A stretch of DNA of 62,620 nt, the filler included, from Squatina squatina (Eukaryota), in assembly GCA_031763465.1 (NCBI GenBank). It is 3 parts of 3 records of this genome, joined end to end, with 100 filler letters (N's around TTAATTAATTAA, not from the genome) between each part and the next. Parts side by side here need not be neighbours in the genome. Positions count along the whole stretch, not along the records: positions 22,760 to 47,142 come from JARFOE010000115.1; 2 more parts are not named here. One strand, given 5' to 3'. The notes below the pieces were generated by a model. It saw only the letters and a program-made list of their open reading frames with translations. It ran no database searches and was not told the origin of the DNA. Positions within the stretch are counted from its first letter, which is position 1, and each line of letters opens with the position of its first letter. The position numbers were made by a program, and so were the translations under genes. Positions 24,690 to 27,250 of the stretch are shown here, in pieces.

Positions 24690-27250
24690 AGAAGGACTTA
24701 CTAAAGGCAAAACTGGCAAGTGCAAAGTGCGTTGTGTGTCTGACGAGTCCAGGCACGGTCGTCGAGCAAGATGAGGAAGCGGAAATAGGAGGTGATAAGG
24801 GGTCAGGTGACAATTCGCAATATGGGGACTGATGCCCGCCCCCCACTCCTCCGGAGCCACCTAGTACTGGGCATCCCATCAACCCCATGCGGCAACAAAG
24901 ACTTGCTCTGTTGGCAGTCGGAGCTTTGCAAAGTGATTATGAAGTACCCGTTAACACTACTCAGCTAAAAGAGATGGTCGTGGATGTAGAAAAGTTAATG
25001 ATTGTGGAAGACCCGGAAGCAATGTTCGGGGCGGTACGGCAGGCAAAAGACCTAAACGGCTGTGATGACGGGGAGCACATCAAAATGTTGTGGTTTACAC
25101 TAGACCCCTCTATATAACTAAATGGGGTGGAGGCACCTTGCAGGGGATAAAAGATCAAATTCTACGGGCCATGGGTTGCGACAGCGGAAGCCCATTTGAG
25201 TGGATGAATAACACCAAGAAAAAGCCGGGAGAATCACCGGAAGCTTTTGTCGAGAGATTACAGCTCACCTTCGCGGTCGCCTGCGGCGCTAATTTGGTGC
25301 GGGATAATCTGTTAGCCCACCCCCTCAATCACTGGCTGAGGACACTAATTGCAATTAGCCTGCCCCATATTCAAGCTAAAGCGGATCACTGGTTTGATCC
25401 TCGGGCCGTCAACACAGAAGCTATAGTTTTACGGAAGTTAACGCTGGCTTTCGAAGCAGATAGGGGCGGAGCCGGTAAAATGGAGGGAGATGGTTCAGTC
25501 AAGCTAAAACAGAAAGGGAAGCTGCTCGAAGCAGGAGGTTATCCATCATGTATAGATGGGCAAGGCAAGCAAAAGTGGCAGCAGGAGGGAGGAAATTTTA
25601 GACAAGGGGAGGATAAGATCTGCTGTAATTGCGGAGGAAAGGGACATTTCATTAGAGATTGTGCGAGACCTAAGACCAAATGGGATTCTTTAAGTCCAAA
25701 ACCATCAGCACCACCTCAGGACAGCCAGAGTGGCGGACCAGGGGAGAGAGTTACACAAATATTTGCAAAAGCCCCACAACAGTCAGTCGGGAAAGAGTTG
25801 TGAGTGCAGCCACTGGTAATGGCCAGGGTGACTCACCCCTTCCCAGTGAAGGAGCTGCATCCAGCCTGAGTATCTGTGTACACTCAGATATGATGATTGA
25901 GGGAGACCGTGTATTGACACAATAGTGGATGGGAAGAGAGGGGAATATCTAGTGGACACGGGGGCTTCCAGCACCGTGATACACTCAGAGACTCCCTCAA
26001 GAGCCCCATGGTCATGCAGTAAACCATTCACTTTGGCGGGTTTCACTGGGGACGAACGGGCTGGGATGGTATCAAATCCTTTAAGTTCCAAGGCAGGCGC
26101 CTTGGAAACCAAGTGGACATGTGGATTAATGAAATGGGATCAAACAGGGTTCGACGTCCTCGGGTCAGACTGTTGGCTCATAATATTATTGTGGACATGC
26201 AGAATGATTGCATATGGGGAGCCACGGACGAAGATTGGTCTGAGGAAGTATAAGTGACCCTGAAGGGAGTTAGAAAACGTGGGTCTGCATGGATCATGCA
26301 GCCCAAGGACCCATATGACAGTGGGCAGTTGGTAAACAATGTACCTGAGGAGTACAGATCAGTGTCAGAGGCAAACAAGGGAGCCCTTACTACACATAAA
26401 CACGACTGAGGTAGTGTGACAGGCATGGAAGTACAGATAGATGGGGAATCTATGATTAAAGCCCTGAAGCAGTATAACTTCCCAAGGGACACAGAGAAAG
26501 ATTTGGAAAAGGTGGTGACTTCGCTGGTTGAACAGGGGGTCCTGAGGCTGCTGGCCACCTATATAAACTCGCTGGTTTCCCCGGTTAAGAAACCAGATAA
26601 GTCGTTGGGAATGACCGTAGACTATTGGGTCTTAAACAAAAATATTCCCGCCTGTGCCCTTACTGTTGCAGCGGTGATAGACCTGATTGGAAATATCCTC
26701 TCATTGGCAATGATATTTACCAGGTTAGATATCTCAAACAGGTCCTGGTCGATACTGGTAAGGCAAGAAGTCCAGTGCAAGTTTGTGTTCACCTTTAAGG
26801 GACAGCAGTACACCTGGACAAGTCTGCCGCAAGGGTTCCACAACAGCCCCTCCACATTCCACCGGTGTATGGCTAAAACCCTTAAGGAATTCAGTCGGCT
26901 GGACTGCCTGGTTCAATATGTGGATGTTCTGTTGCTGTTTTCAGATTCTGAGGGGGACCATAAAGAAATACTGGATGAATTGTGAAAGCTGTTAGCCACA
27001 GCAGGTTTCAAAGTAAACCTCAAAAATGCCCAGATTGAGAAAAAGGAGTTATGGATTTAGGATTAGCACTCAGACCCGGAGAAAGATAAATAGATGAAAC
27101 CAAGCGAAAGGCAGGGCAAGAGCTAACAATCCCTGTTGACGTTACGGCCGAGAGATCATTTCTAGGACTCACAAGATACTCGAGGGAGTTTGTTGAGGAT
27201 TATGCTGCCACAACAACGGCTCTCTTAAGGTTACTCAGAAAAGATATTCA
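24690..27250 (+). mobile_element. Decayed endogenous retrovirus-like element (gag-protease-RT), 3' truncated
   Basis: Gag fragments with CCHC knuckle CNCGGKGHFIRDC (~25625). Protease GRP...YLVDTGAS (~25950). RT motifs SPVKKPD, VDYWVLNK, LDISN, FTFKGQQYTWTSLPQGFHNSP, QYVDVLL, then GFKVN and RSFLGLTRYSREFV after frameshifts. Multiple stops and frameshifts. No RNase H, integrase or LTR seen. Confidence 0.9.

What the first reader, a model, noticed from the sequence alone, without database searches (positions are those of the whole stretch)
24690..27250. Deep-branching retrovirus-like fossil (spuma/lokiretrovirus-like RT with a CCHC gag) in a shark-type genome
Seen: gag with a CCHC knuckle, DTGA protease, and RT with LDISN.SWS...FTFKGQQYTWTSLPQGFHNSP...QYVD(V)LL. 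Known: LPQG and QY.W..LPQGF.NSP are retroviral signatures, whereas Ty3/gypsy elements usually have MPFGL. Foamy-virus Gag lacks CCHC knuckles. Inference: this combination fits a basal lineage (lokiretrovirus-like, SnRV-like or Odin-like) better than foamy or gypsy. Such lineages appear poorly sampled in cartilaginous fish. The catalytic YVDD has decayed to YVDV, and the element stops abruptly after the RT thumb.
Basis: partly seen in the sequence, partly recalled or inferred. Interest (0 to 1): 0.7.

Follow-up and report, generated by a model that had tools for sequence, protein, structure and literature searches.

The report
Decayed SnRV-like retrovirus fragment in shark
This is a broken 2.5-kb piece of an old retrovirus in what is probably a shark genome; it most likely belongs to the snakehead-retrovirus-like group already reported from the elephant shark, not to the exotic Loki or Odin lineages, so it is a new but ordinary member of a known group.

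Summary
The fossil is real: part of gag (MHR-like motif, one CCHC knuckle), protease and RT at about 24,700-27,250, with stops, frame changes and YVDV at the catalytic motif. No LTR, RNase H, integrase or env was found in the window. It is not Loki or Odin: all 24 published Loki RT rows read xPFG and the 16 Odin rows seen read LPFG/LPFA, where this has LPQG; trees reject nesting in Loki (AU p=0.0008) or gypsy (p=0.002). The RT sits among canonical retroviruses, in a supported clade (97/95) with frog, coelacanth and turtle ERVs and a protein about 77% identical (by eye) to elephant-shark CmiERV lineage I, published in 2015 as SnRV-related. A sister position to foamy viruses is not formally rejected (p=0.09-0.18). 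Class III RTs are the commonest ERVs in cartilaginous fish, so 'poorly sampled' is overstated. What is new is an unnamed sub-lineage (about 49% identity to CmiERV-I, 61% to one unnamed complete Pol). Side result: integrases of its complete relatives group with Loki integrases, with moderate support. Verdict: new member of a known kind, low to modest interest.

The parts
24700..25160 (+). Probable 5' remnant of gag (proline-rich stretch, start of capsid); broken by stops; the gag start and 5' LTR are missing
   Evidence: GC change point about 24,713; position before the capsid part. No Pfam or protein hit, so the identity is inferred
25135..25803 (+). 3' part of gag: capsid C-terminal region with MHR-like motif (25,216-25,260) and nucleocapsid with one CCHC knuckle (25,621-25,662)
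   Evidence: Open frame; zf-CCHC E=0.012; ESM Atlas features match Retrotrans_gag/zf-CCHC clusters at 0.94; same ESPxAFxxRL motif and single knuckle in CmiERV lineage I, read by eye
25877..26170 (+). Aspartic protease (DTGA at 25,955); one stop near its start, frame change near its end
   Evidence: Pfam RVP E=1e-4; 54% identity to P0001 residues 3-86
26176..26469 (+). Protease end and protease-RT linker with the THKHD motif; two stops
   Evidence: tblastn to P0001; stop count
26470..27254 (+). Reverse transcriptase fingers, palm and thumb; LDISN, LPQGFHNSP, decayed catalytic motif YVDV; two stops and a frame change in the 3' third; ends before the tether domain
   Evidence: RVT_1 E=2.6e-15; 61% identity to P0001 over 253 columns; trees
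22105..22225 (-). Host context: internal exon of a LYPD6B-like gene about 2.5 kb from the fragment, on the opposite strand (fragment probably intronic and antisense)
   Evidence: Pfam UPAR_LY6_2 E=1.7e-15; best PDB match LYPD6B E=1.3e-14; the preceding coding exon was not found

Best explanation
This is a broken gag-pro-RT fragment of an endogenous retrovirus, most likely of the SnRV-like / clade Huo (class III-type) group and of the same broad clade as elephant-shark CmiERV lineage I. Shown: gene order, motifs, breaks, both ends, and RT placement among canonical retroviruses outside Loki and gypsy. Inferred from relatives: the parent virus had LTRs, a one-knuckle Gag, a Pol with protease, RT, tether, RNase H and integrase (as in P0001) and an env (as in CmiERV-I), and probably made Gag-Pol by reading through a single stop (CmiERV-I has gag and pol in one frame with one TGA; SnRV has a UAG). 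It entered the germ line antisense to a LYPD6B-like gene, probably in an intron, later lost both ends by deletion and has decayed neutrally since. It cannot replicate and has no evident function.
For: IQ-TREE, LG+C20, 61 rows: window + P0001 100/98; inside a 15-row clade 97/95 with frog (P0002, P0007, P0010), coelacanth (P0008, P0050, P0074, P0157), turtle (P0014) and unnamed proteins; inside canonical retroviruses 99/89; Loki apart 100/99; foamy pair apart 100/97. Identity over the first 138 RT residues: P0001 64.5%, P0006 51%, SnRV 43%, Loki 30-36%, foamy 33-34%, gypsy 28-30%. P0011 is SnRV and P0078 is a Loki by match to the published rows; P0085 is feline foamy virus. CmiERV-I read by eye shares THKHD, PACA, LDISN, LPQGFHNSP, the MHR-like motif and one CCHC; about 68 of 138 residues identical to the window and 106 of 138 to P0006. 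The clade as sister to SnRV costs no likelihood (AU p=0.47-0.52). Five stops and two frame changes in pro-pol and an end branch about twice that of P0001 (0.48 vs 0.25) fit neutral decay.
Against: SnRV itself is not the sister in the best 61-row tree; it joins class I there (99/93), so 'SnRV-like' is a grade here and not a shown clade. A sister position to foamy viruses is not rejected (p=0.094-0.175). Under the mixture model, clade-plus-Loki is only borderline rejected (p=0.0499), and the clade itself has only 84-91 support in the smaller quick trees. By sequence search the best solved structures are foamy RTs (E about 1e-20), but no SnRV-type name appeared among the 60 hits shown of 203. CmiERV-I was not in the tree (proxy and by-eye counts only); ERV4, Ovex1 and class II references were not identified in it. 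No Odin sequence was in the tree. LTR, integrase and env are absent from this copy.
Confidence: 0.87

Rival explanations
1. A foamy-like (clade Tu) fish ERV that kept or gained a CCHC knuckle.
For: Top PDB hits are foamy RTs; AU tests do not reject a sister position to foamy viruses (p=0.109, 0.094, 0.175).
Against: Only 32% and 28% identity to feline foamy virus and to an elephant-shark foamy-like RT, against 41-61% for most of the frog/coelacanth/P0001 clade; never grouped with foamy in five RT trees; CCHC knuckle present, whereas spumaviruses, ERV3 and ERV4 lack it (PMC4299795).
Confidence: 0.05
2. First lokiretrovirus or Odin-like element from a cartilaginous fish (0 of 6 chondrichthyan genomes had Loki in PMC7947760).
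For: Shares LDISN and QYxWxx with some Loki rows; relatives are annotated 'NYNRIN-like' like Loki proteins; relatives' integrase and tether are close to Loki's.
Against: LPQG instead of xPFG (24 of 24 Loki rows; 16 Odin rows seen); AU p=0.0008 for nesting in Loki, p=0.011 and 0.0499 for the whole clade as Loki's sister.
Confidence: 0.02
3. Ordinary Ty3/gypsy retrotransposon.
For: CCHC Gag and Atlas feature hits to Retrotrans_gag clusters.
Against: AU p=0.002; 25-28% identity to five gypsy RTs; closest complete relative has two RNase H-type domains.
Confidence: 0.01
4. Same virus, but the truncation is an assembly artefact: a repeat collapsed or misjoined in a gappy short-read assembly, the real locus being longer.
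For: 47 N runs in the window; expected LYPD6/LYPD6B exons were not found; sharp GC step at the 3' end.
Against: Both ends lie inside one gap-free stretch, about 350 and 1,300 bases from the nearest gaps; heavy decay fits an old locus that had time to be deleted.
Confidence: 0.12

Closest known systems
CmiERV lineage I of elephant shark (Han 2015, PMC4422223)
   Same: Same RT motif set, THKHD linker motif, MHR-like ESPxAFxxRL, one CCHC knuckle; same RT clade through proxy P0006; cartilaginous-fish host (assumed for the window).
   Different: Only about 49% RT identity (by eye), so a separate family; CmiERV-I is complete with LTRs, integrase and an env whose TM has the classic immunosuppressive motif and CX6CC (by eye); this copy has none of these.
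Snakehead retrovirus (SnRV) and the SnRV-like clade / clade Huo (PMC6001957, PMC4977317, PMC12193657)
   Same: LDISN, LPQGFH, QYVD motifs; 43% identity over the RT core; sister grouping not rejected.
   Different: 37% over the whole RT; not the sister in the best tree; SnRV's integrase is far from that of this clade's complete members (35% to P0001; grouping rejected p=0.011).
Frog and coelacanth ERV Pol proteins annotated 'NYNRIN-like' or 'Gypsy integrase-like' (Xenopus tropicalis, Aquarana, Rhinophrynus, Latimeria)
   Same: Same supported RT clade; 41-47% identity.
   Different: Several are intact and multi-copy (24 members in the Aquarana/Lithobates cluster); different hosts.
Lokiretroviruses and Odin retrotransposons (PMC7947760, PMC9040795)
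   Same: Basal position near the retrovirus root; integrase and tether of this clade's complete members resemble Loki's.
   Different: RT motif xPFG versus LPQG; RT tree rejects membership.

Membership tests
Retroviridae (canonical retroviruses) | RT groups with canonical retroviruses, outside Metaviridae and Loki | tested here: met
   99/89 support; AU rejects gypsy p=0.002 and Loki p=0.0008
Retroviridae (canonical retroviruses) | Order gag-PR-RT-tether-RH-IN-env between LTRs | tested here: inconclusive
   gag-PR-RT present; rest absent from the window; P0001 has two RH-type domains and IN; env and LTR seen only in CmiERV-I
SnRV-like / clade Huo ERVs (incl. CmiERV lineage I) | RT outside class I, ERV-L and foamy, grouping with SnRV-related ERVs | tested here: met
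   Clade 97/95 with P0006, the proxy of CmiERV-I; clade as sister of ERV-L-like rows p=0.044. Class II references were not included
SnRV-like / clade Huo ERVs (incl. CmiERV lineage I) | Monophyly with SnRV itself | tested here: inconclusive
   Not rejected (p=0.47-0.52) but not recovered with support; SnRV joins class I
SnRV-like / clade Huo ERVs (incl. CmiERV lineage I) | Gag zinc knuckle may be present (unlike ERV3, ERV4, spuma) | tested here: met
   One CCHC; statement in PMC4299795
Lokiretrovirus / Odin | RT in the Loki/Odin clade, xPFG motif | tested here: not met
   no Odin row in the trees
Lokiretrovirus / Odin | Env like Mononegavirales F protein (Loki) or no env (Odin); CGIN1-like integrase | not testable with these tools
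   No env or IN in this copy; relatives' IN groups with Loki IN at 92/92 and 95
Foamy viruses / foamy-like ERVs (clade Tu) | RT in the foamy clade | tested here: inconclusive
   Never recovered; AU p=0.09-0.18 does not reject a sister position
Foamy viruses / foamy-like ERVs (clade Tu) | Gag without CCHC knuckle | tested here: not met
   CCHC at 25,621-25,662
ERV4 (Chong et al. 2014) | No Gag zinc finger; crocodilian/turtle RT clade | tested here: not met
   Knuckle present; no labelled ERV4 RT was available for the tree
Ty3/gypsy (Metaviridae) | RT inside Metaviridae | tested here: not met
   AU p=0.002

The most novel reading that the evidence does not exclude
The fragment marks an unnamed early-branching retrovirus lineage (with P0001 and P0003) inside a wide fish-amphibian-reptile clade that pairs a canonical-retrovirus RT with a Loki/CGIN1-type integrase and a well-kept Loki-like tether. 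If so, the Loki-type integrase is either ancestral to all retroviruses or was swapped between Loki and this clade, and is not the Loki-only replacement proposed in PMC7947760. Its envelope, unknown here, could be the F-type one that unchecked notes report for other shark ERVs.
Probability: 0.25. Interest if true: 0.55.

Novelty: new member of a known kind. Interest (0 to 1): 0.24.

Why it matters
As a single dead fragment it matters little: it adds one more family to a group known from elephant shark, coelacanth, frogs and reptiles. The group lies near the base of the retroviruses and is badly named and mis-annotated ('NYNRIN-like', 'Gypsy integrase-like'). The side result that its complete members carry Loki-like integrases would, if confirmed with better sampling, bear on how retroviruses assembled their pol gene.

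Tried and rejected
No whole genome is held for this window, so copy number, full-length copies and LTRs could not be sought. No sequencing run was listed; this is no evidence either way. Two scans of viral contigs found no relative. The metagenome scan gave 64 loci; the best by score matched at 27-36% identity, and the three I read (L002, L039, L060) carry gammaretrovirus-type motifs (LPQGFKNSPTLF); none matched the gag. A search with the 3' gag among longer proteins found nothing at E<=0.01 among 770 candidates (weak evidence). A single-sequence fold of the capsid-nucleocapsid stretch was too poor to search (mean pLDDT 43). Hayward 2015 and Hart 1996 are not held; their content is taken second-hand from PMC4977317, PMC12193657 and PMC13517186. 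No earlier scan note matches this RT. Dating was not possible without an LTR pair. Co-option of the gag frame was considered and dropped: its 5' part is broken and has no start. The RNase H comparison was uninformative (low scores). Rows left out of trees: 8 of 214 proteins had under 120 aligned RT residues or no hit; a list of 17 near-duplicates was dropped, leaving 192 proteins plus the window for the fast tree; 61, 31 and 24 rows were then picked by hand; 8 of 42 wanted rows lacked an integrase. The AU groupings were named after the first trees had been seen.

Full report
Observation. The three forward frames of 24,600-27,320 show, in order, a broken proline-rich stretch, an open 3' gag frame (25,069-25,803) with an MHR-like motif (KKPGESPEAFVERL) and one CX2CX4HX4C knuckle, a DTGA protease and an RT. 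Pfam gives zf-CCHC E=0.012 (below cut-off), RVP E=1e-4 and RVT_1 E=2.6e-15. The element is GC-rich (about 0.5) against flanks of 0.30-0.38, with change points near 24,713 and 27,225. The closest complete Pol, P0001 (unnamed, Logan, 1,145 aa; PR, RT, two RNase H-type domains, integrase), aligns in three pieces at 48-54% identity, which places frame changes near 26,170 and 27,050 and the end of homology at 27,254, just before its tether. There are five in-frame stops from the protease start to the thumb, and the catalytic motif reads YVDV. No RH, IN, env or LTR was found elsewhere in the window. Both ends lie inside one gap-free stretch (24,353-28,568) of a gappy assembly with 47 N runs.

Context. 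The fragment lies about 2.5 kb from an internal exon of a LYPD6B-like gene on the opposite strand. LYPD6 exons follow at 5.8-7.1 kb and DNMT3A exons lie at 47-59 kb. An intronic, antisense position is likely but not shown, since the preceding exon was not found. The host is a vertebrate; 'shark' comes from unchecked earlier notes on this genome and was not tested by me.

Relatives. The word-index searches returned P0001 (60%), frog proteins named 'NYNRIN-like' (43-48%), coelacanth, caecilian and ostrich proteins. The full HMMER scan of 1.84 billion representatives gave 8,615 hits at E<=0.001, of which the best 150 were listed. Among these I identified references: P0011 matches the published SnRV RT row, P0078 the Loki-Lro row (and is from Labeo rohita), P0029 and P0051 resemble the eel and lamprey Loki rows, P0085 is feline foamy virus, P0148 an elephant-shark foamy-like protein and P0048 walleye epidermal hyperplasia virus. 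Labels such as 'ERV-L-like' and 'gypsy' for other rows rest on their motifs and tree position (recalled motif knowledge), not on names.

Motif test. In the Loki paper's RT alignment all 24 Loki rows have CPFG, LPFG, MPFG or TPFG; the 16 Odin rows I saw (of 21 mentions in that file) have LPFG or LPFA. The SnRV row has LDISNGFWSI and LPQGFH, as here.

Trees. The window RT was read through with X at each break. A fast tree of 193 rows and a careful IQ-TREE run on 61 rows with a mixture model agree: gypsy | Loki (100/99) | canonical retroviruses (99/89). The window pairs with P0001 (100/98), then P0003 (99/95), inside a 15-row clade (97/95) of frog, coelacanth, turtle and unnamed proteins. The branching among this clade, SnRV, ERV-L-like and class I is unresolved; SnRV is sister to class I (99/93). 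AU tests (LG+G4, 31 rows): window+P0001 with Loki p=0.0008, with gypsy p=0.002, with foamy p=0.109, with SnRV p=0.21; whole clade with Loki p=0.011, with ERV-L-like p=0.044, with foamy p=0.094, with SnRV p=0.47-0.52. With the mixture model on 24 rows: Loki p=0.0499, foamy p=0.175, SnRV p=0.52. So Loki and gypsy are out, foamy is disfavoured but not excluded, and 'SnRV-like' holds as a grade.

Known shark relatives. Han 2015 (PMC4422223; first part of the text and first part of supplement 1 read) reports CmiERV lineage I clustering with SnRV. Read by eye, that provirus has LTRs, a Gag with the same MHR-like motif and one CCHC knuckle, gag and pol in one frame separated by one TGA, the THKHD, PACA, LDISNGFWSI and LPQGFHNSP motifs, and an env with a classic TM. 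I count about 68 of 138 RT residues identical to the window and 106 of 138 identical to P0006; P0006 is 51% identical to the window and lies in the same 15-row clade. Xu et al. 2018 (PMC6001957, passages) call this group clade Huo, with the widest host range. Naville and Volff 2016 (PMC4977317, passages) name SnRV-like elements as the main coelacanth ERVs. Blanco-Melo et al. 2024 (PMC11089739, passages) count 2,843 clade III RT loci in six chondrichthyan genomes, more than clade I. Chong et al. 2014 (PMC4299795, passages and one section) note that ERV3, ERV4 and spumaviruses lack a Gag zinc finger, while some SnRV- and Ovex1-related ERVs have one. Wang and Han 2020 (PMC7947760, parts 1-3 of 4 and supplement parts) found Loki in 0 of 6 chondrichthyan genomes, so a shark Loki would have been news, but this is not one. 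I found no paper naming this particular sub-lineage in six full-text searches; unread supplements (tree files of Xu 2018, Wang and Han 2023, Hayward 2015) may well contain it.

How it most likely worked. Inferred from P0001, CmiERV-I and SnRV: an enveloped LTR retrovirus with a one-knuckle Gag, Gag-Pol made by stop read-through (SnRV has a UAG junction per PMC13517186, passages), and dual RNase H and integrase. It integrated in the germ line, lost both ends and decayed; the window's end branch is about twice P0001's (0.48 vs 0.25) and CpG is partly depleted (o/e 0.52 against 0.35 for the window). The gag-pol junction of this copy is too decayed to show the mechanism. No present function is evident.

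Side result on relatives. P0001's integrase is 44-45% identical to Loki (Labeo) integrases, 48-53% to the frog proteins, 35% to SnRV's and 32% to feline foamy virus's. In integrase trees the clade's members group with two Loki integrases (92/92; SH-aLRT 95), and grouping with SnRV is rejected (p=0.011), but the RT-like topology is not (p=0.21). The tether is also closer to Loki's (33-40%) than to SnRV's (26%). Wang and Han describe the Loki integrase as a CGIN1-like replacement specific to Loki; their sampling lacked this clade as far as the listed taxa show. This is a lead from relatives, with only two Loki integrases in the test, and not a property shown for this locus.

Verdict. Real, retroviral, dead; a new family in a known group already reported from cartilaginous fish. 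Interest 0.24.

Noticed in passing
P0001, P0002, P0007, P0010, P0050, P0074, P0157, P0004 (relatives, not in the window): Integrases of this SnRV-like clade group with lokiretrovirus integrases rather than with SnRV's (92/92; 95), which explains their 'NYNRIN-like' names and may question a Loki-only integrase replacement.
   Followed up: partly
P0004 (ostrich, 1,109 aa): An intact-length SnRV/Ovex1-grade Pol in a bird whose catalytic motif reads CVSD, perhaps a co-opted or decayed gene.
   Followed up: no
window 47,500-59,500 (-): Exons of DNMT3A (PWWP, ADD, catalytic motifs; best PDB match DNMT3A E=6e-37) lie just upstream of LYPD6B-like and LYPD6 exons; from memory these genes are far apart in human, so this is either shark synteny or a scaffolding join.
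   Followed up: partly
window 5,800-7,100 and 20,680-22,225 (-): Last two coding exons each of LYPD6 and LYPD6B; the first LU-domain exon of both was not found, probably in assembly gaps.
   Followed up: partly
window 36,480-36,850 (-): Second decayed LTR-element remnant: CCHC knuckle followed by a protease-like LDSA motif; weak hit to a gypsy-type protein (E=5e-4).
   Followed up: no
window 28,480-28,900, 32,914-32,981, 39,472-39,539: Myb/SANT-like frame (Pfam E=2e-6) and a three-copy repeat, likely remains of a Harbinger-type DNA transposon (family name recalled).
   Followed up: no
window 52,146-52,283 (+); 4,367-4,445 and 47,958-48,036: LINE 3' fragment and a two-copy 79-nt repeat recalled as resembling shark CR1/HER1-type tails; not verified.
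   Followed up: partly
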